NCBI GenBank assembly: GCA_964016885.1 | Contig: OZ024741.1 | Location: 83,452,001-83,516,000 of the forward strand | Length of the DNA stretch: 64,000 nt | Direction of reading: 5' to 3' | DNA from: Eledone cirrhosa | Lineage: Eukaryota | In this document: one piece after another, positions 1 through 63,052 of the stretch | Layout of the letters: every line of letters starts with the position of its first letter | How positions within the stretch are numbered: the first letter of the stretch is position 1 | The notes under the pieces: generated by a model | Database searches by the model: none | What the model saw: only the letters and a program-made list of their open reading frames with translations | What the model was told of the DNA's origin: nothing | Made by a program: the position numbers and the translations under genes

Positions 1-2932
1 CATTTGAAACGCTCAATGTTTTGTTATATGTTTCAGCTGTCACATTGCTATCATATAACACACATCTAAAACCACGCAATCAAGATACAAACAGAAAGCC
101 TGAACCAGCGTGGATGCGAAATTTAAAAACCAAAATTTTGTCCCTGAGACGAAGTATCTCACACATCGCAGTCGTTATGAAATGCAACATAGAGAGAAAC
201 TTCACACGACACCAGGAAGACCTAAATAAAAAGTTAGAGAGACGATTTGGAGATACCAAATTTAAAACTTTGAACTCCAAATTACACCAGTTGAAACAAC
301 AACTCACAGCTACAACAGAAAGACTAAAATATAAGTCAACAGCCCATAAACGACAAGTGCTAAATAGATTGTTTGCCAGAGATCCTAAATCAGTTTATCG
401 CAGCTTCGGTGGCAAAAGCTCAATCCCTGTAAACGACACCCCTTCAAAAGAACAGGTTGAGAACTACTGGAGATCTGTATGGGAAACGGATGACGGATTC
501 AACAGACAAGCTAATTGGCTAAAACAACTGGAACAGGACTACTGCCAACATGTCCAGACAAAACAATATGACATAGATGGGTCAATACTGGAAACAGCTC
601 TACAGAAAATGTCGAATAGGAAATCGCCAGGCCCAGACCTCATTACAGGATACTGGTTGAAGAATTTCACTTTCTATCGGCAAGATCTCATACGGCTGTT
701 TACAGAAACCATTAAGGGCACACAAGAACTGCCCAGATGGTTATCAACTGCCACTACTCTCCTCATTCCCAAAAATAGCCAAACCACCCTTGCTAAAAAT
801 TACCGCCCAATTGCCTGCCAAAACATCATGTATAAATTATATACTGGGTGCCTTAACCTGTTCTTACAAGATCACTGTGCTACCAACAACATCATAACAC
901 CTGAGCAAGCTGGTGGAAAGAGGGAGGTGTGGGGTTGCATAGATCACCTACTAACTAACAAAATGATTCAGGAAAAAACAACAAAGAATCGCAGAAACAT
1001 GACTGTCGTGTGGCTGGACTATCAAAAAGCATTTGATAGTGTACCTCATGGGTGGATTATTAAGGCTTTACAGTTAGCTAAAGTCCCACAACCATTAGTA
1101 GCTGCTGTTGAACGCCTGACCAAGAACTGGTACACCAATTTGATCCTTAGAGGTGAGAAGGAGCAGGTTAAGACTGATAGGATACATTACCAGAAGGGCA
1201 TCTTTCAGGGTGATAGCTTGTCAGTACTACTCTTCGTTCTCTCACTGAATCCACTATCTTACCTACTCAGGAAACAAGGTGGACAAAGAAGTGGGCCCAG
1301 AAGTATCTCCCATCTTTTCTTTGTTGATGACCTGAAGTTGTATGGGCCAAATATCAATGACATCAAGAAACAATTGGACCTCATTACACAATTTTCAACC
1401 GACATCAAAATGAAATTTGGTGAGTCCAAGTGTGCATATTTGACAGTAAAACGTGGAAGAGCTGTGCCCTCCTCTAGAAATCTAGATATGAACGGCCTGA
1501 CAATACAACCTCTGCAGTCAGGTGACAACTACAGATATCTTGGACAGGATGAGAATGTCAGATATGATGGACCCATAAATAAGGAGAGAACCAGAACTGA
1601 ATACCTCAGAAGAGTAAAAAAAATATGGTCATCAGAACTGTCAGCATACAACAAATACATTGCCCACAAAACCTATGCTGTGCCAATTCTAACGCCAACA
1701 TTTGGCCTACTGAACTGGTCATTGCAAGAACTAAGTGAGATGGATGTTAGAACTCGTAAACTTCTCAGTGTTACTGGGAACTTTAACATCAATGGTGATG
1801 TGGATAGGCTATACTTCTCACGCAAGGAAGGTGGCCGGGGTCTAAAATCAATATTAACAACATATGAAACCCGGATAGTAACACTGAAGCAACACCTTCA
1901 ACATAGGAAAAAGGTTGGCGACCATCTTGCTCAGGTTTATGAGCATGAAAAAAGAAATATCATTAGAATAGCGACTGATCTGGAGGAGAGATATGGAATA
2001 AAGCCTGATATAAATCTCTCACCCAGAGAAATCGGAAGATCCTATTCAATGTTCAAACAAGAAAAGAAAATTGACCAATTTACAGAGAAAGTTGTGCATG
2101 GATACTTGAGGCGTAAAACACAGACCATAGAGGGGATAAACCACTCAAAAAGCCTGGCATGGAGTTCCGACAAGTTTATGACATCACACCTTGAGGGATA
2201 TCTCTATGCAATACAGGAACAAGAACTCCCTACCAAATATCTGCTGCACAAAAGAGGAGGGCCAGCAGCTGACAATAAATGTAGGCTATGTAAAACAAAG
2301 ATCGAGGATGTAAGCCACATTGTTGCCAGCTGCGAAAGAATGTCATCTCGCTACTACCTCCCCATGAGACACGATGGGATAGCTAGAACTATCTGGAACG
2401 CACTTAGGAAAACAAAATTAACAACAAACGAGGAAGAATATATTGAGACAGATGGCACTAAGGAATACTGGTGGAACCTGAAAATAAAAACTGCCACCAA
2501 ATTAAAGCACAACCGGCCTGATATTGTAGTTTGGGACCACACATTGAAAACGTGTTCTGTTGTGGAGATCAGCTGCCCACTTGATGTAAACGTTGTCAGA
2601 AAAATACAGGAGAAGGAGGACATCTACGGACCATTGATGAGGAGCTTACAAATCCAGTATCCAAGATAACCTTTAGCTTCATACCCATCATTATTGGTGC
2701 TACGGGTTATATACCAACCCGCTTGGACCAAAGTATGACCGAACTTGGATTTGCGGACAAAAAGCGCAGCTCCCTAATTCATAGTCTACAAATGGCTGCG
2801 ATAGCTGGCACCTTCAAAATATGCAAAACATTCTTGCGATTCAAGGGATGACAATTTCTTTTCTTTTACAACCTTGCCACCAGGAAGGTGGCCGGTCAAA
2901 AAAAGATACTCGAAATTAAGAGAAAGAGAAAA
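1..2932 (+). mobile_element. R4/Dong-like non-LTR retrotransposon (RT + RLE endonuclease), copy A; 5' part lies outside the window
   Basis: ORF 21-2669 has RT motifs (KSPGPD, YRPIAC, WLDYQKAFDSVPH, GIFQGDSLS, FVDDL), GGRGL, a CCHC knuckle CRLCKTKIEDVSHIVASC and RLE motif RPDIVVWD..VVEISCP. The 3' UTR ends ...AGAGAAAGAGAAAA followed by TACATACATACA. Confidence 0.9.
21..2851 (+). CDS. Near-intact RT-RLE polyprotein of copy A (N-terminus outside window; 1-bp frameshift near 2668)
   Basis: 882 uninterrupted codons with catalytic FVDD. The stop at 2669 comes from a 1-bp loss (CCAAGATAACC vs CCAAGATACACC in copy B). The shifted frame continues TFSFIPIIIGATG...KICKTFLRFKG to TGA at 2849-2851. Confidence 0.8.
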
Positions 2933-2949
2933 TATACATACATACATTA

Positions 2950-5900
2950 CATTACATTTATAAAGAAATATACAAGTAACGTTTTCGATTCAGAAACAAA
3001 AACATAAGTGTTTGAACTGTGAATATGTTGTGAATAAGATGTAGAACACCTATTTATGTGAATGATACATAAACTTTAGCATATAAATACAGCGTTGTTA
3101 TATTATATTACATTCATAAAGGAATATACTAAGTAACGGTTCTTTTTGTTCTCGATTCAAGCGATTCAAGAACAACGTTTAAAACACAGTTGTAGAATTA
3201 AAAACTAACTGAAAATAAATATTACCCAAGCTGTGAATAACTTTAAATTTGATTCTGACAGAAATTTGTCGAAATTTTAAGAAGATCATCGAATATTTTG
3301 AAAAATAAATACGAAATATTAGTGAATAGACGAACTCATCATGGCAAAAAGTACAAGTCTCCTTCGATCAAATCGCAACTACAACCGTTGTATACAATGG
3401 AGCTACGAGCTTAACAAAGTATTATATGAAGCATACAAACAATCTGAATCCCAAAAGTTCGGTTTTATGCAAAGGCTAAAAACTTTATGGAACTCCAAAC
3501 ACCCAGAATTAGACTTTTCTCCAAAGCATTTAAATGAACAGGCAAAACGTATCATTAGATGTAAATTGATACATCTAACGGAATTGAGTGATACTACAAA
3601 TACAGCCCTTGTAGACAACCACCCCACCTCCACTGACAGACAAAGAGAATGGCCAGCTAAATCTAACAGTGAACAGCTCGCCAACAATTTTGCTGAAATC
3701 TATCCCACTTCCACTGAAGAACAGCGAGAAAGGTCAGCTAACTCTAGTAGTAATTGTCACCACATCAACAACGAGGCTGAAATTCATGACTCTACTGAAC
3801 AAACAGAGCACCAAAAACTTGTGGGCACCCTACAAGTGATATGGAACGATATGTTTCAAGAGATACACAGCCTTAATGTGAGTGACAGACCATACAACAC
3901 TAGAGTCAGTAAAGAACCCACTAAATTGGAATTGGAAGCGGTGAACGAAATAGCTGGCAATTATCTGAAGGCTATACGATCTAAAGGTGTAGAAACGACA
4001 TTTGAAACGCTCAATGTTTTGTTATATGTTTCAGCTGTCACATTGCTATCATATAACACACATCTAAAACCACGCAATCAAGATACAAACAGAAAGCCTG
4101 AACCAGCGTGGATGCGAAATTTAAAAACCAAAATTTTGTCCCTGAGACGAAGTATCTCACACATCGCAGTCGTTATGAAATGCAACATAGAGAGAAACTT
4201 CACACGACACCAGGAAGACCTAAATAAAAAGTTAGAGAGACGATTTGGAGATACCAAATTTAAAACTTTGAACTCCAAATTACACCAGTTGAAACAACAA
4301 CTCACAGCTACAACAGAAAGACTAAAATATAAGTCAACAGCCCATAAACGACAAGTGCTAAATAGATTGTTTGCCAGAGATCCTAAATCAGTTTATCGCA
4401 GCTTCGGTGGCAAAAGCTCAATCCCTGTAAACGACACCCCTTCAAAAGAACAGGTTGAGAACTACTGGAGATCTGTATGGGAAACGGATGACGGATTCAA
4501 CAGACAAGCTAATTGGCTAAAACAACTGGAACAGGACTACTGCCAACATGTCCAGACAAAACAATATGACATAGATGGGTCAATACTGGAAACAGCTCTA
4601 CAGAAAATGTCGAATAGGAAATCGCCAGGCCCAGACCTCATTACAGGATACTGGTTGAAGAATTTCACTTTCTATCGGCAAGATCTCATACGGCTGTTTA
4701 CAGAAACCATTAAGGGCACACAAGAACTGCCCAGATGGTTATCAACTGCCACTACTCTCCTCATTCCCAAAAATAGCCAAACCACCCTTGCTAAAAATTA
4801 CCGCCCAATTGCCTGCCAAAACATCATGTATAAATTATATACTGGGTGCCTTAACCTGTTCTTACAAGATCACTGTGCTACCAACAACATCATAACACCT
4901 GAGCAAGCTGGTGGAAAGAGGGAGATGTGGGGTTGCATAGATCACATACTAACCAACAAAATGATTCAGGAAACAACAACAATGAATCGCAGAAACATGA
5001 CTGTGGTGTGGCTGGACTATCAAAAAGCATTTGATAGTGTACCTCATGGGTGGATTATTAAGGCTTTACAGTTAGCTAAAGTCCCACAACCATTGGTAGC
5101 TGCTGTTGAACGCCTGACCAAGAACTGGTACACCAATTTGATCCTTAGAGTTGAGAAGGAGCAAGTTAAGACTGATAATATACATTACCAGAAGGGCATC
5201 TTTCAGGGTGATAGCTTGTCAGTGCTACTCTTCGTTCTCTCACTGAATCCACTATCTTACCTACTCAGGAAACAAGGTGGACAAAGAAGTGGGCCCAGAA
5301 GTATCTCCCATCTTTTCTTTGTTGATAACCTGAAGTTGTATGGGCCAAATCTCAATGACACCAAGAAACAATTGGACCTCATTACACAATTTTCAACCGA
5401 CATCAAAATGAAATTTGGTGAGTTCAAGTGTGCATATTTGGCAGTAAAACGTGGAAGAGCTGTGCCCTCCTCTAGAAATCTAGAGATGAACGGCCTGACA
5501 ATACAACCTCTGCATTCAGGTGACAACTACAGATATCTTGGACAGGATGAGAATGTCAGATATGATGGACCCATAAATAAGGAGAGAACCAGAACTGAAT
5601 ACCTCAGAAGAGTAAAGAAAATATGGTCATCAGAACTGTCAGCATACAACAAATACTTGCCCACAATACTTATGCTGTGCCAATTCTAACGCCAACATTT
5701 GGCCTGCTGAACTGGTAATTGCAAGAACTACGTGAGATGGATGTTAGAACTCGAAAACATCTCAGTGTTACTGGGAACTTTAACATCAATGGTGATGTGG
5801 ATAAGCTATACTTCTCACGCAAGGAAGGTGGCCGGGGTCTAAAATCAATATTAACAACATATGAGACCCGGATAGTAACACTGAAGCAATACCTTCAACA

Positions 5901-6923
5901 GAGAAAAAAGGTTGGCAACCAACTTGCCCAGGTTTAAGAGCATGAAAAAAAAATATCATTAGAATAGCGACTGATCTGGAGGAGAGATATGGAATAAAGC
6001 CTGATATAAATCTCTTACCCAGAGAAATCGGAAGATCCTATTCACTGTTCAAACAAGATAAAAGAATTGACCAATTTACAGAAAAAGTTGTGCATGGATA
6101 CTTGAGGCGTAAAACACAGACCATAGAGGGGATAAACCACTCAAAAAGCCTGGCATGGAGTTCCGACAATTTTATGACATCAGACCTTGAGGGATATCTC
6201 TATGCAATACAATTACAAGAACTCCCTACTAAATATCTGCTGCACAAAAGACGCGGGACAGCAGCTGACAATAAATGTAGGCTATGTGAAACAAAGATCG
6301 AAGATGTAGGCCACATTGTTGCCAGCTGCGAAAGAATGTCATCTCGCTAATACCTCCCCATGAGACACGATGGGATAGCTAGAACCATCTGGAATGCACT
6401 TAGGAAAACAAAATTAACAAACGAGGAAGAATATATTGAGACAGATGGCACTAAGGAATACTGGTGGGACCTGAAAATAAAAACTGCCACCAAATTAAAG
6501 CACAACCGGCCTGATATTGTTGTTTGGGACCACACATTAAAAACGTGTTCTGTTCTGGAGATCAGCTGCCCACTTGATGTAAACGTTGTCAGAAAAATAC
6601 AGGAGAAGGGGGACATCTACGGACCATTGATGAGGAGTTTACAAATCCATATCCAAGATACACCTTTAGCTTCATACCCATCATTATTGGTCTAAGCGGG
6701 TTATATACCAACCCGCTTAGACCAAAGTATGACTGAACTTGGATTTGCGGACAAAAAGCGCAGCTCCCTAATTCATAGTCTACAAATGGCTGCGATAGCT
6801 GGCACCTTCAAAATTTGCAAAACATTCTTGCGATTCAAGGGATAACAATTTCTTTTCTTTTACAACCTTGCCACCAGGAAGGTGGCCGGTCAAAAAAATA
6901 TACTCGAAATTAAGAGAAAGAGA
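2950..6923 (+). mobile_element. R4/Dong-like LINE copy B, full length, inactivated; head-to-tail with copy A (period 3998 bp)
   Basis: Position 1 corresponds to 3999. 5' UTR ~2950-3340, ATG at 3341, same 3' UTR as copy A, followed by (TACA)4. Confidence 0.9.
3341..6845 (+). pseudogene. Disrupted RT-RLE ORF of copy B
   Basis: Fragments 3341-5689, 5719-5937, 6090-6350 and 6360-6695 are collinear with copy A. FVDD is mutated to FVDN, with several stops and frameshifts. Confidence 0.9.
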
Positions 6924-7232
6924 TACATACATACATACAAAGCAGCAGCTAATCCCAGAATGGTGTTCTAAAGAGTTTCGTGTGTGCTAAATTTTGTGGA
7001 TGAAACAATCTGAGCTATTGAGCCATACGAAACATTTTTGAATAAATCATACTCCTCCATATGTAATGTGGCATTTACAGTGCAGATGGGCTAACATGTC
7101 ACAGCAAACATGTCACGCCAATTATCACTGCTTATTTTATAACATATTACATATACCTTCCTGGTTTGATCCGCCATCTTATATGACATCAGTGACAACA
7201 ACGTCAATAACATTAGTTGAATTCCCCCATAC

Positions 7233-7285: not shown

Positions 7286-7348
<63 letters not shown>

Positions 7349-7611
7349 GCAAAAAATGAAACGAAATTTCATTTCCCACTCTTAGTACGGCTGTTACTTA
7401 AATATAAGTATGTATATGTACATACTAATATGTATACAGACGTACAGTAGTATATATATATATATATATACATGCACACATATATATATATGTACGTATG
7501 GATTCACCGAACATTTATTATAATGCTCGGTGTGTTTGTAAACAAACATCCCGTATTAAGCCGCAGTGTCTAGGAACCATCGTTGCTCGTTTGTTCAACA
7601 CTGACAAAGGA

Positions 7612-7654
7612 ACGCTGTACTAGTTTCAAGCTTATTAGTTATCGTCAGCAACGT
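7612..7654 (-). ncRNA. Minimal type I hammerhead ribozyme motif (inverted unit)
   Basis: Minus strand reads acgttg CTGACGA taactaataagctt GAAA CTAG TA cagcgt. Stem I pairs; one mismatch in stem II. Confidence 0.7.
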
Positions 7655-7778
7655 ATACCTTCCTGCCAGATGATTTAACGCCTGAAAGTATATACTTTCC
7701 TTATGAATATTAACGACTGAGTATATGCATAAGGAAAGTATATACTTTCATACGTTCAATCATCTGGCAGGAAGGTAT

Positions 7779-7821
7779 ACGTTGCTGACGATAGCTAATA
7801 AGCTTGAAACTAGTACAACGT
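7779..7821 (+). ncRNA. Minimal type I hammerhead ribozyme motif
   Basis: acgttg CTGACGA t agct aata agct t GAAA CTAG TA caacgt: 6-bp stem I, intact core, 4-bp stem II, palindromic CUAG stem III. Predicted cleavage after GUA at 7815. Confidence 0.85.
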
Positions 7822-8123
7822 TCCTTTGTCAGTGTTGAACAAACGAGCAACGATGGTTGCTAGACACTACGACTTAATACGGGATGTTTGTTTACAAACA
7901 CACGAGCATTATAATAAATGTACGGTGAATGTATATGTACATATATATATGTGTGCATGTATGTATTTATATATACATACTACTGTACGTCCGTATACAT
8001 ATATGTATGTATGTATACATACTTATATTTAAGTAACAGCCGTACTAAGAGTGTGAAATGAAATTTCGTTTCATTTTTTCCGTTTATCGTTTTCGGTGTA
8101 CCCGGCCGATTAAACCACTCGAT

Positions 8124-8131
8124 ATGCAAAT
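8124..8131 (+). promoter_or_regulatory. Octamer motif ATGCAAAT in the hammerhead repeat
   Basis: Exact match ~80 nt upstream of the CTGACGA core. Also present at 37931-37938, 37755-37762 (minus), 19186-19193 and 19515-19522. Function is inferred. Confidence 0.45.
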
Positions 8132-8205
8132 TGTGCTACTCAGCCGTTAATATGAATAAGGAAAGTATATACTTTCAGACGTTCAATCATCTGGCAGGAA
8201 GGTAT

Positions 8206-8248
8206 ACGTTGCTGACGATAGCTAATAATCTGGAAACTAGTACAGCGT
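8206..8248 (+). ncRNA. Minimal type I hammerhead motif, second direct unit
   Basis: acgttg CTGACGA tagctaataatctg GAAA CTAG TA cagcgt. Core intact, stem II partly mutated. Predicted cleavage at 8242, 427 nt after the previous site. Confidence 0.7.
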
Positions 8249-8464
8249 TCCTTTGTCAGTGTTGAATAAACGAGCAACGATGGTTGCTAGACAATACGGC
8301 TTAATACGGGATGTTTGTTTACAAACACCCGAGCATTATAATATATGTTCGGTGAATCCATACGTACATATATATATGTGGTCATGTATGTATATATATA
8401 TACATGCTACTGTACGTCCGTATACATATATGTATGTACGTATACATACTTATCTATATATATA

Positions 8465-13564: not shown

Positions 13565-16500
13565 ATTAACGGGACCAGTTGCACATATTGGCGTGGGATA
13601 TTATTCATTAAATTTTAGATGGATGCTATCTCCGACAGTAATGCCACAAAACCAGCTGTGTTGAATAACTAGTTATTCTTCTAAATATACCCACTGATAA
13701 CACCTTTCATTCCAATTTGTAGAGATATCCGACTAAATACTAAATTCATTTTACAAGGATTTGCTACTAGCATCATGGCTGAACACAACATCAACATTAA
13801 CATCAGTGGAGTGCCGAAGAAAACCAATGATGAGAAAGGTAAACGCATTTTCTTTAGTTGTAGCAACAGAAGGAACCGGAATTATGAATCGTATTTCTCT
13901 TGGAGCAACGAAATTAATAAGTGTTATAAAATGGCCAACAAAATTCCTCCGTCGGCGTTATGAAAAGAATGAAGCTATACTAAGACGAAATACACCCAGA
14001 TCTAAATCACTTTACAGTCAAACAATTACGCCGACAAGCAACATTCGTTGAATGTAAAAATAACATTAACATCATTATTGTAATTCCCCCAGATGGAACA
14101 TGCAATCAACAACACGTGCTACAGGCCGCCATACTACTAGACTTTCTAGCAGCCTGACTGAACATCAACAAACAACAGCAATGGACGAACTATGCCGGTA
14201 AGAAATTTGACACCACGTGTATCAACTGATTCTACCTCGACTATTGTTTTAAAAAATGTTAATAATAATATGTCTGTCATTAGCTTTGAGATCGAAGAGT
14301 ATAAACAATTGAAATCTACCCTCAGCGAAACTTTCGAAAGGGGAATTAATTCATGTGTAAATATTTCTCTCGCGAAACATTATAAAACAATAATACTAAA
14401 CAAAACGAAACCAAATAATGAAATCTTGCGGGATATTGATGAAATTGGGGGTGAATATTTACGACAAATTAAAACAGCTACATTTTGTCAAGTCAGCTAC
14501 TCTTTATATGCCCGGTCAACTACAGTGAACATTTATTTGGTGATAACAGAGATGTTTACAAAAACTAAACACCACCAAAAATACCATCATATATTACTAT
14601 AATAGAAAACGAAGATTGCTGACCTACGGAAAATTATAGGATACGTTACAATGCAAGAACAAACAAAAAAATAACTACACTCATCACCGATACCACAGAT
14701 TGAAAAGTAAAAGAGAAACGATGTTTGAAGAGAACTCATCAATATAAGCTGATCACCTTCAAACAAGAATTGAGACCTGTCAGCTAGAAGTGTTGATAGC
14801 AGAAGAGGGTGGCTAAAGGAAAAATAATTAATAAAAGATTCAGACGAAACCAAAGATCAGTCTATAGAGATATAAAGGACAACGTGATAAATGTCAATGA
14901 ACCCCCCTCACAGAATGACAGATTACTTCTAGAGAAAAATATGGGGTGAAATGAAGAAGTTCAATCAAGATGCAGTGTAGCTAAAAGGAATCCAAAAGAG
15001 TTATCGCTCCTACATTAAACAAAAACATACAGAATAAATGATACCACCCTTGAGACTGTGATACAAAAACGCCAAGAAAATACCAGAAAGAGACTTGATT
15101 GTTGGCTACTGGTACGAAAAAGAAAGACATTCTATCGGATGTATCTTATCAACCTCTACCAGCATGCTCTCAAGGGGGATGCACATATAGCAGGGTGGTT
15201 GACATTAACACAAACAATATTGGTCACCAAGAACGAAGAGACCCTCTTCGCAAAATAATTATTACCGTCACATTACACGCCAGAATGTAATGTATAAATT
15301 GTATAAGGCCTGCCTGAACCTTTTTCTCCAGGATAACTAAGGGCAATAACATCATCACAGATGAGAAAGCAGCTGGAAAGAAAGGTGTTTGTGTGTGTGC
15401 TGAATTAACAAAACTACGATGTCAGAGGTGAGTCGAATTAGGAACAGAAGAGCATTTCATTCTGTTCCCCATTCTTGGAGATGATAGAAGTCCTCCGACT
15501 TGCTAAAGTCCTAGAACCTATCTTTTTCTTGGGCTACTGTCTTAAAGTTAAGAACAGAGAAGGAATACTCTATTTTCACTGATAAAATGAAATATCAACG
15601 GGGCATATTTCAAGGAGACAGTCTCTCTCTGCCACTATATATTATGCCATTACACCCTTTGTCCTTACTGCTCAAGAAATATGAAGGATACATCATTGGG
15701 TCACGCAAGGACAGAAATACGAACCTAACCCATACTTTCTTTGTGGTTTACCTGAAACTAGATGCTAAAAACATAAATAGGATGAAGAAAATTCTTGACC
15801 TGATTACGACTTCATCAAAGGATATTGGAATGAGGATTGGTGAGGATAAATGTCTATATATGATTGTAAAGCAGGGAAAAACTACAACCCATTCTAGCAA
15901 CATCAATGGCCTAACTGTTTCACCAATATCAGACGAGGATTGCTGCCGAAACTTAGGGATAAATGAAAATATATCCCATGATGATATCTGTAACAATGAA
16001 CGCGTAAACAGGAAATATTACACCCGATTAAGAAAAATAAGTTCATCTGAAATCTCTGCGCATTATAAAACAGTGGTTCACAATGTGTTTGTTGTGCCTG
16101 TCCTAATATCAACACTTGGATAATTCGATCAGGCGTTACATGGAATCTGTCAAATGATGTCAAAACCCGAAAACTCCTAAGCAACACTGGGAACTTCCAC
16201 ATCAACACTGACATTGACCGCCTATACTTGAAACGTATGCAGGGAAGCAGATGTCTAGCCTCAGTTCACATAACATTTAAGTGACGCACCATATCCATTC
16301 GAGACAGATAAGATTATGAGAGTTAGGAAGGAACTCCTTGAAAGATACTCTCTGGGTGATAATCAAAAACACACCCAGGGAAATAGCCCAGCAATACCGC
16401 TGTGACATCATGGATTAAAAGTTGCATGCTTATCAGCAAAATCTCATGCATAGATATGTTGCCAGGAGGCTCCAGTGTTGTAGTAGAATCGATAAGGAAA

Positions 16501-17427
16501 GTAGTCTATCTTGAACAAAAAACCGCTATTTCGTCTCTCAGTTTGAAGAATATGCTTTTGCAATCCAAGAACAGGAAATCAACGCAAAATACCTGATTTA
16601 CAAAAGAGACAGTGAAGCAGGTAAAACACCTAGATGTGACAACAAATGCAGACTCTGTAACATTAACATCTAAGATGTCACCCATGTCATAAAGAGCTCT
16701 CCAAAGATGTCATCATGGTACTATCTACACCTGAGACATGATGTAGTGGCCAAAACAATATACAATGCAATCCGAAGAAACGTAGACCCGTTAATAAACA
16801 AATTAAATGTTACAGCAATGTGGAAGACATACACATGCATAATATGAAAGAGTACTGGTGGAATGTCCCGGTCAAAGCCCCATTAGAATTCAAGCATAAC
16901 AGACCAGATATAGTGATATGCGACAGGGAAAAGAAGGTATCCAGAGTAACTGAAGTTATCTGCCCAACAGATGCCAATAAAATATTAAAGGCTAGCAAAA
17001 AGGAGAATATCTATGCAGAGCTAATGAGAAATCTACAGACACACTACCATGTCAATACCTTCAGATTTATATCTGTGATTATTGGGACACTAGGATATGT
17101 TAGTAACTGCCTCAGTCCAAATCTTGAGAACATGGGCTTCGCAGATACAGAAAGAACATGACTAATTTGGAATTTACAAGTACAGTAAAAATATGTAAAC
17201 CATTCCAAAGCATTCTGCATCTAATAACTGCATAAACACATGTACATATATAAAGCATATGCAAATGCACACATATAACATTCATACCTGCACACACATG
17301 CATGCATGCAGACATGCAGACATATCTATCTATTTGATATTGTTTAAATTCCAATGAGAATATTGTGTCTATGTTAGAAACCAACACGCTCTATTGGTAA
17401 AATTATAAAATTATAAAACCAGAAAAA
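13565..17427 (+). mobile_element. Full-length, heavily decayed R4/Dong-like LINE (second subfamily), in tandem with the preceding fragment
   Basis: N-terminal RRNRNYESYFSWSNEINK resembles copy B RSNRNYNRCIQWSYELNK. Also YQRGIFQGDSLS (15587-), a CRLC knuckle (~16647) and FKHNRPDIVICD..EVICP (16820-17161). CATA tracts at both ends. Confidence 0.85.
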
Positions 17428-17472
17428 CATACATGTATACATATACAGAAGAAAGTATGAACATTATATATA

Positions 17473-18328
17473 CGAGGTGTCAGAAAAGTCCCAGCAATGA
17501 GGTCACAAAAGATTTATTTCAAACCCAAACTTCACACTAAGAGTTTTCTCCTTCAAAGTAACCCCCTGGTGTATGTAACTGTAATCTTAGCTCTCTGCAG
17601 CAATCAAACTTTTTTCTTCATAATTTTATATACATGTCCTCTGTTTCAGGTCGTCACGCAATCAACAAACTTGAAAACTCCGTCAGAAGCACTGGGATTG
17701 CTGCAGGAAGTGTATGGAGATGAGACGATGTTACGCTCACGTGTTTTTGAGTGGTGCAAGAGGTTTAAAGAAGGACGCGAGAACGTGGAAGATGACCCCT
17801 GGAGCGGAAGGCCCTCAACAACCAGGACTGAGGTCAACGTTGAGCGTGTCAGGCAGATGGTGCGTAGCGACAGTCGTCTGACTTGGCATGAATCAGGACA
17901 GCGTCTGGAAGATTCTCACTGAAGATTTGGACATGCGGAAAATCTGCGCGAAGATGGTGTCAAAACTGCTGAACGATGACCAGAAGGGTCGACGCATGCA
18001 AGTGTGCCAGGAGATCCTCGAGCGTCTTGAAACCGAACCAGACTTGCTAGGGACGGTCTTCACCGGTGATGAGTCATGGATCTTCGAGTACGACGCGAAG
18101 TGGACCCGTTTTGAAGACGTGGACGACATCAAAAAGGCCGTGACGACTGAATTGCGGAGGATCCTGGAAGAATCCTTCCAGGAGTGCATGCAAGCGTGGC
18201 AAAAAAGGATGGAAAAGTGCATTAGACTGCAGGGGGATTACTTTGAAGGAGAAAACTCTTAGTGTGAAATTTGGGTTTGAAATAAATCTTTTGTGACATC
18301 AGTCCTGGAACTTTTCTGACCCACCTCG
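17473..18328 (+). mobile_element. Internally deleted mariner-family DNA transposon with ~96-bp inverted ends and TA target duplication
   Basis: TA|CGAGGTGTCAGAAAAG...CTTTTCTGACCCACCTCG|TA. Transposase remnants: VFEWCKRFKEGRENVEDDPWSGRPST (HTH), TGDESWIFEYD, and C-terminal CIRLQGDYFE. The central catalytic region is missing. Confidence 0.9.
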
Positions 18329-19100: not shown

Positions 19101-19557
19101 AAATTCGCATACATGTATGTATACATCTATGCTAAAGCTAAATTTTTATACTACTCTTAAATTGAGCCAACTTATAGAGCTTCATATGCAAATAAGGCTA
19201 ATCTGCCCACCTACAGAGGCGAAAAAACTATATATTTTCGCCTTTTTCAAGTTCCAGCAGTGAGTAGGGGAAGCACTGTCCTGATTAGAGACAGTTGCTT
19301 AAAATGCGCATAGACATTTGTCCGCTGCTGCTTCTGCTGGAATCCGCTAGTCGGCACCTTTCGATATTCATAGCTGGGCTTTTAAAATGTTTATTTATAA
19401 AAACATAAGGTATATTTTTAGATATACGAAATTCACATACATTTAATGTATACAACTATGCCGTAGCTAAATTGTAATCATACTTTTAAGTTGAGCCAAC
19501 TTATAAAATTTCATATGCAAATGAGGCTATTCAGCCAATATACACAGGCAAAATAAC

Positions 19558-19563
<6 letters not shown>
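19101..19563 (+). repeat. ~329-bp unit with ~135-bp terminal direct repeat, octamer and decayed hammerhead
   Basis: 19101-19234 resembles 19429-19563, each with CATATGCAAAT.AGGCTA. Between them: tgtc CTGATTA gagacagttgctt AAAA TGCGCA TA gaca (19277-19316). Confidence 0.7.
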
Positions 19564-19590
<27 letters not shown>

Positions 19591-28370: not shown

Positions 28371-31300
28371 TATAATATAACAAATAATGTCTGTGTATCT
28401 GTTTCCCTAAAACTCGAGAAGTACCCAACCGTTTTTTTTTCAAACTTTACACATGTAATACGTATGGTCCTGTGGGTGTGTTGAGCAAAAACATTTTTCA
28501 AATTATTTAGTCCTACGGATCAAATTAGTGAAGTGGCCAATATCTGCACATAATGAGGGAGTGAGAGAGGAGAGAAAGAAACGGAGAGGCGAAGTGACGA
28601 AGTGGCTCTCTACTCCTCCTCCTCCATCTCCCCATTTGTCACAGCGTTTTTCGATAGAGGGGAGAAATGTGAGTGAGTTATAAAGAGAAAGAATGAGAGT
28701 GAAAGAAACAGACAGACTAAAAGAGTGGGATAGCGGGACAGAGAGAGAGGGAGAGAGAGCGACAGACGCTGTGTTTGATACATGACAGTGGAAGAGGGGA
28801 GGAAAGCTATAACTAATTAACATGTGTGCGTGCGTGTGTATGTGTGTGTTTGTGCAGCGTTCCACTAAGAGTTAAATCGATTAACAGTTGTATGTGTGTG
28901 TACGTGCACACGTCCTTGCGTTAGTTTGCGTGCGTTTGTGCGTTTGCGTGTGTGAGTGCGTGTGTGTACGTGCATGTGGCGTTTCACTCCGCCATTTTTT
29001 CAGTGACAACATATTCACTAACTTACATTCATTCCAACCGCTGCTCTTACTGTTACCCCTCTCCCTATCCATATCCCGGTTAAGACGACACTCATGGTTT
29101 AGCAATTACATAGTCAACCGTTCGGAAATCACATGCATTGGTTTTTAATTCACTGACGAGTTTACTCCTTACTCTACCAGTCAGTTTCAGTGTACTGCTT
29201 CCAGTTTTTAGGTCATGCCTCGAAGGAAGAGATACCCTATTGGCCGAAAATCTGCGAAAGCAGCAACAACAAGAACAGGTCGGGCAAACGAATCGTCAGT
29301 GGAATCTGTTATTCGACGGACGCAAGATGCTAAACGTGCTGCCACCAGAAGAGCACTTGAAACAGACAACCAACGAACCATTCGCCGAACACTAATGCCG
29401 AAACAACTTCTGTTGCACGAGCTGCCGAGACGGAAGACAGCGTAAAAGACGTCGGAGTACGGATGCTGCGAATACTGCTGCTGCGTGAGCTACACAGTCC
29501 TCTCAAGAACGAGACATTCGACTACAATGTAATGCTCAATGAAGGGCCTTTGGGCAGGGTATTTCAAGGCCATGTTGCTTGCGATGGTCCTTAAAAGCAT
29601 TCGAGTACAACTCTAACTTTGATTACAGTAGCCATCCAGACATGCGAATTGAGAGTATGCCAAAGACGTGCTCTTTCTGCAACGCAAAAAAGTGGCCCGG
29701 AGAAACACTTGGCTTGTTTTGCGCAAATAGAAAAGTAAAATTACGTCCCCTGGAGCATCCACCACAACTGTTGAAGCTCCTATATTCAGGCAGTACTGCG
29801 GAGTCACGGCATTTCCTGACTTACACCCGGAGGTATAACTGTGCTTTCCAAATGACATCTTTCGGGGCGAACATTGTCAAGGAAGGCGGATTTATGCCAA
29901 CATTTAAGGTGCAAGGTCAGGTGTACCATAGAATCGGATCCCTCCAACCTGCCGCCAATCAAGACCCTCAATTTCTTCAGCTGTACTTTGTTGGGAATGT
30001 CAAAGAGCAGGCAGACATGAGGAACTTCATTTCACCTGGTACCAAAGTCGAGCTTATAAGGAAACTGCAAGACATTCAGCACACAAGAGACAGCTGTCAT
30101 TAGCTTCAAGTATGCCTTGGAAGGAGATACCACAGTCAATTTTAATATGGTAATTGATACCTCGAAAATGCCATCTGGGGAGCATCCGGGTCGGTATAAT
30201 TATCCTGCATGCAATGAAATCGCTGTACTTATGCATGGGGAGTCAGCATGATCGACGAGACATTGTCCTCAATCGTCGAGATAGCACTCTTCAACGAATC
30301 AGCGGAACACATAGGTCTTACGATGCGCTCCTGTATCCACTTCTCTGTGTAAATGGTGAGGACGGCTATCAGTACGGAATTCACCAGCATAATCCAGTAA
30401 ACCCTCAACACTCCGTCTAAAAACCAGTTATAGGCATGGATTTCTACTCCTACCGCTTTATGGTTCACCACGATTCCTTCAATCACCTGCACCAGTCAAG
30501 AGACCTGCTTCGGCAATTTGCCGTTGATATGTGCGCAAAAATGGAATCGGAGAGACTGTGTTTCATACAGTCACACGAAAGGCATCTACGGTCCGAGAGC
30601 TACATTCATCTCCGAGATGCCATCAACAATGACGCAGCTCCCAGCAGCGTAGGAAAAGTCTGCATTCTCCCTTCCACCTTCACCGGAAGTCTGCGCTACA
30701 TGCACGAGAGAACGCAGGATGCTATGACCTACGTACAGCATTACGACAGGCCCGATCTGTTCATCACATTCACTTGCAATCCAAAGTGGAAGGAGATCGG
30801 AGCAGAACTGTTCCAAGGGCAACAGGCCAAAGACAGGCATGACCTCCTGGCCCGAGTCTTTCGGCTGAAGCTTATCAATCTTATGGAGCTCATCAAGAGA
30901 GGGCAAGTCTTTGGCCCAGTAAGGTGCGACATGTACGCCGTAGAGTGGCAGAAGAGGGGCCTCCCGCACGCCCACATCCTCATTTGGCTGTCAACAAAAA
31001 TATCTTCATATGACATTGACAGCATCATCTCCGCAGAGTTTCCCGCTCCGTCTATAGACAAAGACCTCTATGACATAGTGAAGACAAACATGGTCCATGT
31101 GGGCGGGGTTTCAATTTAAGCTCACCCTGCTTGAATAACAATGTCTGCAGCAAAAGATTTCCCCGAAGGTTCCTCCAAGAAACCCAGACTTACGTTGACG
31201 GATACCCACTGTACAGGCGACGCCAACCCGGAGAAGGTGGTTTTACAGCAACAGTTGGACAGCACGAGATCGACAACAGATGGATAGTGCCATACTGCCC

Positions 31301-34300
31301 ATTTCTTTCCAAGACCTTCGGTGCTCACATCAATGTCGAGTTCTGTAATTCCGTCAAGTCAATCAAGTACATATGTAAATATGTGAATAAGTGTTCAGAC
31401 GCTGCTATGTTCGGTCTTCAACAGAACAACATCTGTGATGAGGTCACGCAATACCAAGTTGGCCGTTACATCAGCAGCCCCGAGGTTTTCTGGCGTATTT
31501 TCGGCTTCCCTATACACCAAAGGCACCCTGTAATTCAACAGCTCGTAGTCCACTTGGATATCGGTTAAAGGGTATACTTCACTGACGTTAATGCTGCTCA
31601 AATGGTGGAGGAACCACGGGAAACCACCCTCACTGCATTATTCAAACTTTGTCAGGCCGATTCATTTTCTCAAACCCTGCTGTATCCTCAGGTGTCGTCC
31701 TATTACATATGGAATATACAACAATGTGTTCGCAGAAAGGTAGGTCAGCCTGTTAATGGACATCCTGGCATAACGTTTGGCAGTTGCCTAGGGAGAGTTT
31801 ACACAGTGCACCCGAACTAGCATGAGTGGTTCTACCTCCGTCTTCTTCTACATGAGATAAGAGGACCCCAGTCTTTTTATGACCTTAGAACTGCCGACGG
31901 TTCCATGTGCAGCACTTACAGGGAAGCTTGCTTCAAGCGCGGCCTGCTAGAAGACGGTGCGCAGTGGGATGCCACTTTTTTCGAAACTGTTGCATCTCAA
32001 TCGCCTATGCACCTACGAGCTCTATTTGCAGTACTGCTGCAAATTTGTGAACTGAGTAATCCTATCTCTTTGTGGCTCAAGTATACAGATGACTTATCCG
32101 AGGACTACAAACGTCAGGCGCCAGTGCAATACCATGAGATGGAACGTACCAGCGACGATGTCTTCAATCTATCGTTGATTGAGATAGAGGATAGAGTTGC
32201 ATCACTCGTCAGAAATTATTTGCCCTCATATGGTATGCCCCAAACAATCCGTACAGGGTCAAACATACTCCCTACAGCACTTCTCCAAGAAACGTCCTAC
32301 AACGTCGATGCTCTTACCAAGTACGTCCTTGAAACTGAACCACAACTTCCTCCGGACCAACGTCGTGCTTACACCATTGTTGCCGACCATGTGCGCCACA
32401 GAAAAGGAGGTATGTTCTTTCTGGATGCTCCTGCAGGGACGGGCAAACATTTTTAACGAGACTCCTCCTTGCAAAAGTCAGGATGCACAAGGATATTGCG
32501 GTTGCTGTTGCCTCTTCTGGAATTGCTGCCACTTTGTTGCCCGGTGGCAGGACCGCACACTCCAGTTTTAAATTGCCTCTCAATTTAACAACGTCAGAAA
32601 CGCCTACTTGTAGCATCAGCAAGACCTCCGACCAGGACCAAGTCCTAAAACGATGCCAGCTTATTGTGTGGGATGAGTGCACCATGACCCATTAGGGAGC
32701 TCTGGACGCATTAAATAGAGTTCTAAAGGACATCAGAGGCTACCAGGCTCCCATGGGAGGTGTTAGGCTTCTGCTTTCGTGTGACTTCAGACAGAATCTT
32801 CATGTCATTCCCAAAGGCACAAGAGCAGATGAGGTCCAAGCATGCCTAAAGCCTCTCCTCTGTGGCGCCATGTCAGGACACTGATTCTTACAACCAACAT
32901 GAGAGCTCAATTACACGGCGACCAAACGTCCGCGGAATTTGCTCAGGACATTTTGAAACTTGGCGACGGCAAAATACCTCTGGACGCTGCAGGAGAGCTG
33001 GAAGTGTGGCCATTTTCGATCTCAGTTAATTCTGCGGGGGAGCTGAAAGACAAAGCGTTTCCAGATTTGAGAGACAATTACCAGAACCACGTATGGTTGT
33101 GTGAAAGAGCAGTGCTAGCTCCAAAAAACGTCACTGTTAACAAAAACCAACGACCAACTACTGCACTCTATTCCTGGTTTTCTTCACACTTACAAATCTG
33201 TTGACACGATGCCAGATCCCAATGGAGTGGTGAACTTTCCGCCGGAGTTCCTCAATTCTTTGGAGCCCCCAGGACTACCGCTTCACATGGTTCTCCTTAA
33301 AGTTGGCACCCTGTGAATGCTGCTGCAGAATTTGGAACCACCAAGGCTGTGCAACGGGATACGGCTGGCTGTAAAAAAAATGATGGCACATGTAATCGAG
33401 GCAAAATTATTTCTGGATGCGGAAAAGGTGATCTTGTCTTCATTCCGAGAATTCCTCTCATTCCCTCGGGAGCAGAAATTCCGTTCACCTTCCAAAAACT
33501 CCAATTTCCGCTTCGTGTTAGTTTTGCTATGTCCATCAACAAGTCCCAGGGCCAGACTCTTTCTGTGGCCGGACATCTTCTGGAAGAACCGTGTTTCTCC
33601 CACGGACAATTGTACGTTGGGTGCTCTAGTGTGGGCAGCAGAGAAAGTCTTTTCGCATTTGAACGCCGAGGAAAATCAAGAAACATCGTTTACAACGAGG
33701 TGTTGTATATGCAACAGCGAGGAGATAGGTCGGTAATCATCATTTCTTTAGCCAGCCTGATGAACTTTTAAACAGTCTCTTAACTAAAACGTATATTTCC
33801 CTCGGTTTAAGGTGATCGTCTTCAGAGAGGAATCCAGCTTGGCAATCGGCGTGGCAATTTAAGGCGACTGAACGAATCGTGAACGGATACAGAATCATTC
33901 TAATGGCTGTCAATGAACGCAATTGAAGTCCTTTTTGTGGCCGTTGGAGAACGCAGTCAAAGTCCCTTCAAGGGCTGCAAGTGAACTATCAAACGGCCCT
34001 TTTTAGAGCCGAAATTGTTGATGGTGACCCCTCATTTTTATGGCTGTCAGTGAACGCACACACAAACCTATTTAAGGGGCCCTACTTGAAATTGTTTAAC
34101 GGCTAACGCAATGGTAAATTCAAATCGTCAAGCATCCGCTAAAACAGTGTTATAAGCGCTACAGTGGACAGAGAGGTACGTTATCGCTCTTCTTAAAAAG
34201 CCCGGTTTACCTTTACTTATTTTTCCTAACAACATGTTTTCCTTTGGTTAAAGGTGAACACACACACAACCCTTTCTTAGCCTACTCCCCCCTCTGCCAT

Positions 34301-37283: not shown

Positions 37284-37369
<86 letters not shown>

Positions 37370-37637
37370 GGAAAAAATTAAACGAAATTTCATTTCTCAC
37401 TCACTCTTAGTACAGCTGTTACTTAAATATAGGTATGTGTACGTACATACATAAATGTATACAGACATACAGTAGTATGTATATATATACATCCATGCAC
37501 ACATATATATATATGTACGTATGGATTTACCGAACATTTATTATAATGCTCGGTTTGTTTGTAAACAAACATCCCGAATTAAGCCGTACAGTGTTTAGCA
37601 ACCATCGTTGCTCTTTTTGTTCAACACTGACAAAGGA

Positions 37638-37680
37638 ATGATGTACTAGTTTCAAACTTATTTGCTATCGTCAGCACCGT
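37638..37680 (-). ncRNA. Minimal type I hammerhead motif
   Basis: Minus strand reads acggtg CTGACGA tagcaaataagttt GAAA CTAG TA catcat. Confidence 0.65.
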
Positions 37681-38012
37681 ATACCTTCCTGCCAGATGAT
37701 TGAACGTCTGAAAGTATATACTTTCGTGATGCATATTAACGGCTGAGCAGCCTAATTTGCATGTATGTATATATATATATATACTACTGATGTCTGTATA
37801 CATATATGTATGTACGTACACATACTTATATTTAAGTAACAGCCGTACTAAGAGTGAGTGAGAAATGAAATTTCGTTTCATTTTTTCCATTTATCGTTTT
37901 CCGTGCGTCCGGCCGATTAACTCACTCGATATGCAAATTAGGCTGCTCAGCCGTTAATATGCATAAGTAAAGTATATACTTTCAGACGTTCAATCATCTG
38001 GCAGGAGGGTAT

Positions 38013-38055
38013 ACGGTGCTGACGATAGCTAATAAGCTTGAAACTAGTACATCGT
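38013..38055 (+). ncRNA. Minimal type I hammerhead motif
   Basis: acggtg CTGACGA t agct aata agct t GAAA CTAG TA catcgt. Stem I keeps pairing despite changes on both strands relative to the 7779 copy (U-A to G-U). Confidence 0.85.
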
Positions 38056-38262
38056 TCCTTTGTCAGTGTTGAACAAAAAGGGCAACGATGATTGCTAAAC
38101 ACTGTTCGGCTTAATTCGGAATGTTCGTTTACAAACAAACGGAGCATTATAATAAATGTTCGGTAAATCCATGCGTACATATATATATATATATGTGTGT
38201 GCATGTATGTATATACATATACTACTGTATGTATGTATACATATATGTATGTACGTACACAC

Positions 38263-38302
<40 letters not shown>

Positions 38303-45221: not shown

Positions 45222-46448
45222 CAGGCTGCGGACGGTATTTGAGGACAGATTTATGGTTTAATAAAACGCTTATATAACAGAAAAAAACTATATTCTTATA
45301 GAAATAACATAAACATAAAGCTAAATTATCAATTTAAAAATTCCATTCAATAAAACCACCATAAGCATCAATAACTACCTCTACGTGGGGTTGAAATCGT
45401 TTACAAGCTCGGATTAAGTGGTCCTTGTTCATATCAGACAGACTCGAACTATTGCGGCTTTCAAAGATTCTTTGGTGCTATGGGGGTGTTCATTAACAGT
45501 GTTCACAACGATGCGCCATACATAGTAGTCCAGTGGATTGAGATCTGGAGAATTAGGAGACTAAATCTTGGGGGTGATGTGATCATGCAAATTGTCGGCC
45601 ATCCATTCTTGTGTCATTTGTGCATTGTGTGATGGTGCAGAATTATGTTGCATACACTGTTGAGTCAAGAGTTAACAACTTTATCCAGAACCTCAATATA
45701 CGCAGCAGCATTCACCCTAAGGCCTTGTGGAAAAAAAAGTGAGGAGGATCACATGTCCTTCATTGATAACAACACCCCAAACCATGACACTTGCAGGAAA
45801 TTTTCTGTGCATTACTCTTGGAACCTCAGAAGTGTCTGCACATAGCCACCTGTCATTTCTTCTGTTAGTTTTCTGGTCAAAGTTTTTCTCATCTGAGAAA
45901 AGCCAAATCACACCATCTTCTGATGGATTTTTAAGTTTGTTCAAAAGTCTTTTGGATCTGATTAAACAGTTTTCTTTTGTTTTTTCTGACATGAATTGAC
46001 CTCTCTTCATCACGTAAAATTTGTATGTGATGTCTTCATGCACAACATTTCTAATTGTTTTTTCTGACTCACCAACATTTTTTGCAATTGACCTCATTGA
46101 TTTTCTTGGATTGTCATCAATAGTTTGCTCAACTTCCTGAATAATTTCAGGTGTCCTGATGGAATCAGAGCATTTGGAATGTTTTTTACGTTTTGATACA
46201 GGTAATACGCTTCCATCTTCTTTCTCTAACGAATCTTGTGGACAAAAGATCTTGCAACTTTCAGAAAATGAGAAATTTCTAAATCACCATGCTTAGACTT
46301 CAAAGCCACAATCACACCATACCTTTTCATTTCATTAGTAAGCATAGTTATTTTCATTGTTATTTTCTGAAATAGAAGTTCAATAAAAATTAGTCAAATA
46401 AAATAATGACTAAAAACGCATGTGTCCTCAAATACCGTCCGCACCCTG
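45222..46448 (-). mobile_element. Tc1/mariner-superfamily transposon (DD37D/maT-like), decayed transposase
   Basis: 26-bp TIRs CAGG(C/G)TGCGGACGGTATTTGAGGACA. Minus-strand motifs WLFSDEKNF, NRRNDRW, KFPASVMVWGVV, SAPSH, SPDLNPLDY. Subfamily assignment is tentative. Confidence 0.85.
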
Positions 46449-60900: not shown

Positions 60901-60941
60901 GTTGGTGAAGAAGAGTTGGAGAAAAAGGACGAAAGGTGCAC

Positions 60942-62830: not shown

Positions 62831-63052
62831 GTTATTTAGTTTGTAACATTTTGTATTTTAAAACAATTTTTAAAATAAAATGTTCGCCCCTAAAGGGGCG
62901 AAAAATGGGATTACCACCCAGCTGACAATTCAGCTTGGGGGTTAATCTACAAAATAACATATTTTTTCAAATAATTTGTTCTGTTTTTCGTATATAAATT
63001 AACAAAAAATTTTACCGGCGATGTTTCACGCGTCAGACAGAAAGAGAGATAT

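What the first reader, a model, noticed from the sequence alone, without database searches (positions are those of the whole stretch)
8121..8248. Octamer (ATGCAAAT) at conserved distance upstream of the hammerhead in two otherwise dissimilar families
Seen: TATGCAAAT followed by a T/G-AGGCT..TCAGCC-like block occurs at 8123, 37930, 37755 (minus), 19185 and 19514. It lies ~80 nt (427-bp family) and ~88 nt (329-bp family) upstream of the ribozyme core, although the families share little else. Established: newt satellite 2, a ~330-bp hammerhead repeat, is transcribed from an internal snRNA-type promoter that includes an octamer. Inference: these units carry their own promoter, so each tandem copy is a self-transcribing, self-processing module.
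Basis: partly seen in the sequence, partly recalled or inferred. Interest (0 to 1): 0.75.

Follow-up and report, generated by a model that had tools for sequence, protein, structure and literature searches.

The report
Ribozyme repeats with host U6-type promoter
The octamer in these abundant hammerhead-ribozyme repeats is the same word that sits about 77 bases upstream of this animal's own U6-type small-RNA genes, so the repeats likely carry a borrowed promoter inside an RNA that is predicted to cut itself into circles and is likely pasted into the genome by Penelope-type enzymes.

Summary
Both families are non-coding hammerhead repeats (428 and 338 bp) with Penelope-type insertion marks. The shared block has 23,581 exact genome matches (reversed control 0). 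The word TATGCAAAT(T/G)AG, or a one-letter variant, lies at -76 to -79 in 7 of 8 host Pol III-type promoters that I judged genuine (three U6, U6atac, MRP, two tRNA-Sec; RNase P lacks it), and at that place in 0 of 25 U1/U2/U4 upstreams. It is among the most conserved 8-mers within three families and recurs in at least five. The constant spacing is to a TATA-like box (33-35 nt), not to the ribozyme (80-97 nt). Against: that gap is 4-5 nt shorter than in host genes (38-40; one family has 39); the TCAGCC block does not match the U1/U2 element; T-runs would stop Pol III; nothing was assayed. Not every copy is a complete module: many are truncated or have broken cores. Verdict: a variant of animal non-LTR retrozymes with a likely captured U6-type promoter; newt satellite 2 is the precedent. 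The scan noted this before on other DNA of this genome (four notes), read after my own test.

The parts
7343..8453 (.). Family A insertion in (TA)n: inverted 5'-truncated copy (7723 to 7343, minus), direct truncated copy (7723-8039), full unit (8040-8453)
   Evidence: self-BLAST; sequence; architecture
8123..8135 (+). U6-type word: octamer ATGCAAAT (8124-8131) with flanks
   Evidence: host match
8132..8145 (+). GGCT-N4-AGCC-type block (TGTGCT variant here); variable between subfamilies; not a match to the U1/U2 TCAGT word
8166..8171 (+). TATA-like box at the centre of a palindrome, 34 nt after the octamer
8196..8201 (+). Predicted transcription start (TATA+30, or octamer+77); inferred from host gene geometry, not observed
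8191..8260 (+). Type I hammerhead: core 8212-8218, GAAA 8233-8236, palindromic helix III, predicted cut after 8242; helix II weakened in this copy
8074..8087 (+). T6 run (8074-8079) and the distal preferred 3' end of the family (8087), 36 nt before the octamer
7785..7815 (+). Hammerhead core of the truncated direct copy; no octamer upstream
7618..7648 (-). Hammerhead core of the inverted copy; no octamer upstream
37364..38282 (.). Second family A insertion: inverted copy starting at its octamer (37755-37762, minus; core 37674) plus direct copy (octamer 37931, core 38019)
19101..19564 (+). Family B partial tandem: octamers 19186 and 19515, TATA-like box 19229-19234, broken hammerhead core at 19281; second copy ends in (TA)n

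Best explanation
These are non-coding hammerhead repeats with Penelope-type insertion marks, and their octamer block is a copy of the upstream word of the host's U6-type genes that likely works, with the TATA-like box 33-35 nt downstream, as a promoter starting RNA about 11-22 nt before the ribozyme core. Steps: (1, shown) the word sits at -76 to -79 in host U6, U6atac, MRP and tRNA-Sec genes and at a fixed place in five or more repeat families. (2, inferred) snRNA-type factors bind it; Pol III is slightly favoured over Pol II. (3, inferred) transcripts that read through the T-run into the next unit contain two hammerheads, which cut as a dimer and give a unit-length RNA that includes the promoter, probably circularised as in other animal retrozymes. 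(4, pattern shown, enzyme inferred) a Neptune-type Penelope protein nicks (TA)n, starts reverse transcription at one of two fixed internal sites and copies more than one unit, so a normally gene-external promoter is carried into the new insertion in front of a ribozyme.
For: Host match: word at -76, -77, -78 (three U6 promoters), -77 (U6atac), -77 (MRP, 14 nt identical to family B), -79, -79 (tRNA-Sec); background 13 hits in 800 kb of evenly spaced genome samples. A matrix from five host promoters scores the families 16.1-20.5, host leave-one-out 12.1-19.0. Octamer window ranks 2 of 178 (A, 61 copies), 2 of 178 (B, 33), 1 of 178 (C, 32) for conservation and has no common variant while adjacent sites do; no variant at 10% or more in 8116-8132 among 11,248 contigs laid (that run may be the window's own source). 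Octamer-to-TATA gap 34, 35, 35, 33 in families A-D while the spacer diverges; family F has the exact host gap of 39 and a hammerhead. Family C carries three octamer modules. Penelope marks: two 3' ends (A: 35 and 35 of 104; C: 16 and 12 of 98; D: 12 of 29), inversions, (TA)n flanks. RT plus GIY-YIG elements are abundant (150 scored matches).
Against: No assay of transcription, start site, cutting or circles. Gap in A-D is 4-5 nt shorter than the host's 38-40. RNase P lacks the word. I picked the 8 'genuine' promoters after seeing them: 14 dispersed U6 and 7 of 8 U6atac loci lack the word at that place and were set aside as retrocopies by inference. T6/T5 runs lie just before the promoter, and family F has T6 right after its hammerhead, which would stop Pol III. 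T4-free bodies are not significant per family (P 0.11-0.21). Host U1/U2 also have a TATA-like box at -30, so the box does not pick the polymerase. In family D (99% identical copies) the conservation test is uninformative (rank 73 of 178). Copies were chosen by BLAST likeness and the octamer has no CpG, both of which raise apparent conservation. F's word and gap were imposed by the search pattern. No autonomous partner sharing sequence with A or B was identified.
Confidence: 0.68

Rival explanations
1. Same promoter, but Pol II (newt satellite 2 type): the shortened gap and a TCAG block at U1/U2 spacing route the element to Pol II, which passes T-runs and makes multimers directly. This rival concerns the polymerase only.
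For: TCAG lies 26-27 nt before the TATA-like box in A, B, C, as in host U1/U2; family C has the full U1/U2 word there (score 10.0); many segments exceed one unit (64 of 121 in A, a selected set) and 5' ends show no pile-up at the predicted start or cut site; newt repeats are reported as Pol II (passages); the compact human H1 promoter drives both polymerases (passages).
Against: A and B have TCAGCC, scoring -0.9 and -1.2 on the Pol II matrix, and the youngest family D has no such block; the word all families keep is found only in Pol III-type host genes.
Confidence: 0.4
2. The block is an RNA signal read by the Penelope reverse transcriptase, fixing its start site 36 nt upstream; the likeness to a promoter is incidental.
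For: The distal 3' end is 36 nt before the octamer in both A and B and 33 nt in D; an anole Penelope needs RNA about 55-60 nt 3' of its start sites (PMC11167929, parts 1-2 read); GGCT/AGCC and the TATA palindrome can fold as hairpins.
Against: In C the end is 65 nt from the first and 131 nt from the last octamer; the autonomous element L121 has no octamer after its two ends; only 3 of 18 hammerhead clusters in the 800-kb sample have an octamer at that place; an RNA role does not explain the word in U6, MRP and tRNA-Sec upstream DNA, which is not transcribed.
Confidence: 0.12
3. An inherited relic: the families descend from one ancestor that once captured the word, and it no longer functions.
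For: A-B and A-D spacers are more alike than shuffles (0.61 and 0.63, p about 0.01), so common descent is likely; the gap differs from the host's.
Against: The word is kept at 85-92% between families whose other regions are mostly near shuffle level (anchored on the word), was triplicated in C, and is intact in the recently active family D.
Confidence: 0.12

Closest known systems
Animal non-LTR retrozymes (Cervera and de la Pena 2020, PMC7229834, passages; Li et al. bioRxiv 10.64898/2026.07.22.740005, parts 1-3 of 5)
   Same: Non-coding repeats of a few hundred bp with a type I hammerhead, tandem or dispersed, proposed Penelope mobilisation.
   Different: No promoter is described in what I read ('octamer' 0, 'Pol II/III' 0 in the main text of PMC7229834; supplements not seen). 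Here a host U6-type word is fixed in the unit.
Newt satellite 2 (Coats, Zhang, Epstein 1994; not held, seen only as cited in PMC2220036 and PMC6765202)
   Same: About 330-bp hammerhead repeat with an internal snRNA-type promoter; that it includes an octamer is recalled, not read.
   Different: Reported as Pol II; here the word matches Pol III-type host genes and a TATA-like box is present.
Penelope-like elements, Neptune type (PMC11167929 parts 1-2; PMC8557442 and PMC4209133 passages)
   Same: Two internal start sites giving a tail, 5' truncation, inversions, microsatellite targets, palindromic helix III.
   Different: No ORF. The autonomous elements examined here have CCAAT plus TATA words before their ribozyme and no such octamer.
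Type 3 Pol III promoters, including the compact human H1 promoter (PMC6004067, PMC7949045, passages)
   Same: Upstream element plus TATA; H1 has its octamer at -97 to -90 and drives both polymerases.
   Different: Those promoters are gene-external and lost on retrotransposition; here the word is inside the mobile unit, and the gap is 4-5 nt shorter than in host genes in four of five families measured.
Schistosoma hammerhead SINE-like repeats (as reviewed in PMC6765202, passages)
   Same: Pol III promoter plus hammerhead; tandem copies needed to keep the promoter.
   Different: Their promoter is recalled as the internal A/B-box type, not the U6 type.

Membership tests
Animal non-LTR retrozyme | Type I hammerhead in each unit | tested here: met
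   Core words, helices I-III in consensus units; Rfam below threshold; the window's B copy is broken
Animal non-LTR retrozyme | Short (150-450 bp) non-coding tandem or partial-tandem units | tested here: met
   428, 338, 438 bp; D is 466; no ORF of 120 aa over the A and B insertions except simple-repeat frames
Animal non-LTR retrozyme | Self-cleavage and circular RNA | not testable with these tools
   Needs bench work or raw RNA reads
Penelope-mobilised element | Two fixed 3' ends (tail), 5' truncation, inversion, microsatellite target | tested here: met
Penelope-mobilised element | Identified autonomous partner with related terminal repeat | tested here: inconclusive
   50 GIY-YIG loci read: similar T-rich TTTAT ends by eye, no partner pinned down; 150 of 10,596 candidates were scored
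Host U6-type (type 3) promoter | Host proximal word | tested here: met
Host U6-type (type 3) promoter | TATA box at host spacing (38-40 nt) | tested here: not met
   33-35 nt in A-D; met only in family F, 39 nt
Host U6-type (type 3) promoter | T-run terminator and T4-free body | tested here: inconclusive
   First T4+ at +306, +222, +221, +274; P 0.11-0.21; F has T6 just after its hammerhead
Host U6-type (type 3) promoter | SNAPc/TBP/Pol III occupancy and dependence | not testable with these tools
   Needs ChIP or reporter
Host U1/U2-type (Pol II snRNA) promoter | TCAGT word at about -57 | tested here: not met
   A -0.9, B -1.2, D -13.4; met only in family C, 10.0

The most novel reading that the evidence does not exclude
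A group of animal retroelements has turned a gene-external U6-type Pol III promoter into cargo: by cutting read-through RNA into promoter-containing circles they keep a promoter that ordinary U6 retrocopies always lose, and five or more families with tens of thousands of copies run on it. The same comparison defines an unusual compact U6 promoter in this lineage, with the octamer word at -77.
Probability: 0.4. Interest if true: 0.72.

Novelty: new variant of a known kind. Interest (0 to 1): 0.52.

Why it matters
How animal retrozymes are transcribed is not settled in the papers I read. A named host promoter word in a fixed place makes it testable with a two-base mutation. If it works, over 20,000 dispersed copies are potential binding sites for small-RNA transcription factors, and the element shows how a gene-external promoter can survive retrotransposition. 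The host U6 promoter layout is also useful for building guide-RNA vectors in this animal group.

Tried and rejected
Expression: no RNA holder listed, which says nothing either way; the one run laid (X1, kind unknown, contigs) was used only to tabulate variants. Rfam scan: no hit. The 36-nt terminus-to-octamer match in A and B first looked decisive for an RT signal; family C (65/131 nt) and L121 weakened it. TCAG as a U1/U2 element in A and B looked good by spacing but failed the matrix. T-run depletion as proof of Pol III: not significant. 5'-end pile-ups at the start or cut site: none; the peaks at 220-260 in A coincide with the AT-repeat edge and are probably an alignment effect. Folding 38000-38075 gave z = -0.63, no support beyond the visible helices. 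The primary newt papers could not be read. Paper searches (listings only) showed no description of a U6-type promoter in retrozymes or of this host promoter layout; the library lacks most subscription papers and I saw no supplements, so absence from print is not established. A sequence look-up in earlier findings was blank.

Full report
Observation. The octamer alone is only marginally enriched in the window (11 against 5.9; 5 of 100 shuffles reach it). The block TATGCAAATNNGGCTNNNNAGCC has 23,581 exact matches in the 3.0-Gb genome and its reversal none. The window's copies are imperfect: the 19515 copy has no ribozyme, the 19186 copy has a broken core, and two of three hammerheads at 7343-8453 have lost the octamer by 5' truncation. 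No call names the host species.

What the repeats are. Thirty loci per family (the 30 best of 40 scored candidates) show partial tandems, frequent inverted truncated copies and (TA)n or (CA)n flanks. The 3' ends cluster at two sites: A at -37 and -93 from the octamer (35 and 35 of 104 ends), C at -169 and -132 (16 and 12 of 98), D at -34 (12 of 29) and near -105; B is noisier (-73 in 6 of 35). This is the tail pattern that internal initiation by a Penelope reverse transcriptase leaves (PMC11167929, parts 1-2), and partial tandems, inversions and microsatellite bias are described for these elements (PMC8557442, passages). The hammerheads are type I with a palindromic helix III, a form reported to cut as dimers (PMC4209133, passages). 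RT plus GIY-YIG elements are plentiful; I call them Neptune-type from the cysteine linker by eye, without a tree. So A and B fit animal non-LTR retrozymes. No specific partner was identified.

More families. Reading those loci turned up family C (438 bp, three 33-bp octamer modules), family D (466 bp, 99% identical copies, arrays of about 19 units) and, from a pattern search, family F plus further types. Across A-D the octamer-to-TATA-like gap is 34, 35, 35 and 33 nt, while box-to-core is 46, 52, 50 and 59. The fixed distance is therefore to the box, not to the ribozyme. In 800 kb sampled at even steps, 3 of 18 hammerhead clusters carry an octamer at this place, so it is not a general feature of such repeats.

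Conservation test. With pattern-selected loci left out, the octamer ranks 2 of 178 eight-base windows in A (exact in 55 of 61 copies), 2 of 178 in B (25 of 33) and 1 of 178 in C (30 of 32); D is too young to tell (rank 73). It has no variant at 15% or more, while the following block does. Among 11,248 contigs of run X1, no variant at 10% or more falls in 8116-8132 (possibly the window's own source, so not independent). Caveats: copies were chosen by BLAST likeness and the word has no CpG. Between families the word is 85-92% identical (anchored, so partly by construction) and other regions 31-63%, mostly near shuffle level.

Host promoter test. This is the main result. TATGCAAAT(T/G)AG or a one-letter variant starts at -76 and -77 in two single U6 genes, -77/-78 in a U6 array, -77 in the best U6atac, -77 in RNase MRP and -79 in both tRNA-Sec genes, each with a TATA word 38-40 nt on. 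MRP and family B share 14 letters. RNase P lacks it and has the U1/U2-type TCAGT word. It is absent at that place from 13 U1, 7 U2 and 5 U4 distinct upstreams (four U4 copies have a one-mismatch octamer at -109). Dropped rows: 14 dispersed U6 loci and 7 of 8 U6atac loci lack the word there and were judged retrocopies by inference; two array copies have it displaced to -270; 16 U6 array matches and a third, weaker tRNA-Sec locus were not examined. Background is 13 hits in 800 kb. A matrix from five host promoters scores A-D at 16.2, 20.5, 16.9 and 16.1, within the host range. That this extended word resembles a POU2F binding consensus is recalled, from no call; whether it binds a POU factor or is part of the SNAPc site is open.

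What does not fit. The gap in A-D is 4-5 nt shorter than the host's; only F has 39, and the pattern imposed a range of 38-40. The TCAGCC block of A and B lies at U1/U2 spacing but scores -0.9 and -1.2 on the Pol II matrix; only C matches. Host U1/U2 also have a TATA-like word at -30, unlike the human rule that TATA selects Pol III (PMC6004067, passages); in insects the upstream element itself helps choose (PMC1761439, abstract). Bodies of A, B and C have no T4 until the 3' end, but each P is about 0.2, and F has T6 right after its ribozyme. Insertions include the promoter and often exceed one unit, with no 5'-end pile-up at the predicted start, so the copied RNA must have passed the T-runs. 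The polymerase is therefore open: Pol III slightly favoured, Pol II close.

Mechanism. Shown: the word, its position in host genes, its conservation, the insertion pattern. Inferred: promoter activity from about 8196-8201, read-through, dimer cleavage after 8242, circles, copying by a Penelope protein from two internal sites. The rival that the block is an RNA signal for the reverse transcriptase rested on a 36-nt terminus distance shared by A and B; C (65 and 131 nt) and the octamer-free autonomous element L121 argue against it.

Known and new. Newt satellite 2 already pairs a hammerhead repeat with an snRNA-type promoter (citing passages only). The variant here is the U6-type word, in five or more families, checked against the host's own genes. 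Four unreviewed notes of this scan reach the same reading on other DNA of this genome, and one on another genome; I read them, and they are not independent evidence.

Noticed in passing
L241, L242, L261-L270, L290-L302, L322: Host U1, U2, two U6 and RNase P genes share a distal word TTACCTCCCTT at about -260 to -290; it was not found near U6atac, MRP or tRNA-Sec, nor by eye in the repeat consensus units.
   Followed up: partly
L261-L270, L290-L302, L322-L331: Host U1, U2 and U4 genes have a TCAGT-type word near -57 and mostly a TATA-like word at -30; RNase P has the same TCAGT word about 6 nt further from its TATA.
   Followed up: partly
L118, L211, L226, L255: Another hammerhead family has the octamer in reverse orientation 122-137 nt before its core in several subfamilies, which would suit a DNA-binding site.
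   Followed up: partly
L285 near 1390-1500: A U6atac copy is fused to an inverted piece of family C, a possible template-switch chimera.
   Followed up: no
L373-L397; G000:C1:375634781-375643976: Family D copies are 97-100% identical, with an array of about 19 units: recently active and the best test substrate.
   Followed up: partly
L407, L410, L416, L419, L425: Further repeat types with the U6-type word, some with a hammerhead-like core 93-97 nt on; not characterised.
   Followed up: no
L121, L126, L128, L129, L137: Autonomous RT plus GIY-YIG elements with CCAAT and TATA words, a non-canonical hammerhead-like core and two 3' ends just before the ORF start.
   Followed up: partly
window 9294 (-), 43170 (-): Hammerhead cores of a different family without the octamer.
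   Followed up: no
window 1-6939, 15515-17161, 49895-51982, 58661-62857: Non-LTR retrotransposon ORF remains, including a 2.9-kb direct duplication (1-2946 and 3999-6939, 97%); named by eye only.
   Followed up: no
window 29543-33771; 17461-18262; 45717-46283: Fragments that look like a Helitron Rep-helicase and two mariner-type transposases, by eye.
   Followed up: no
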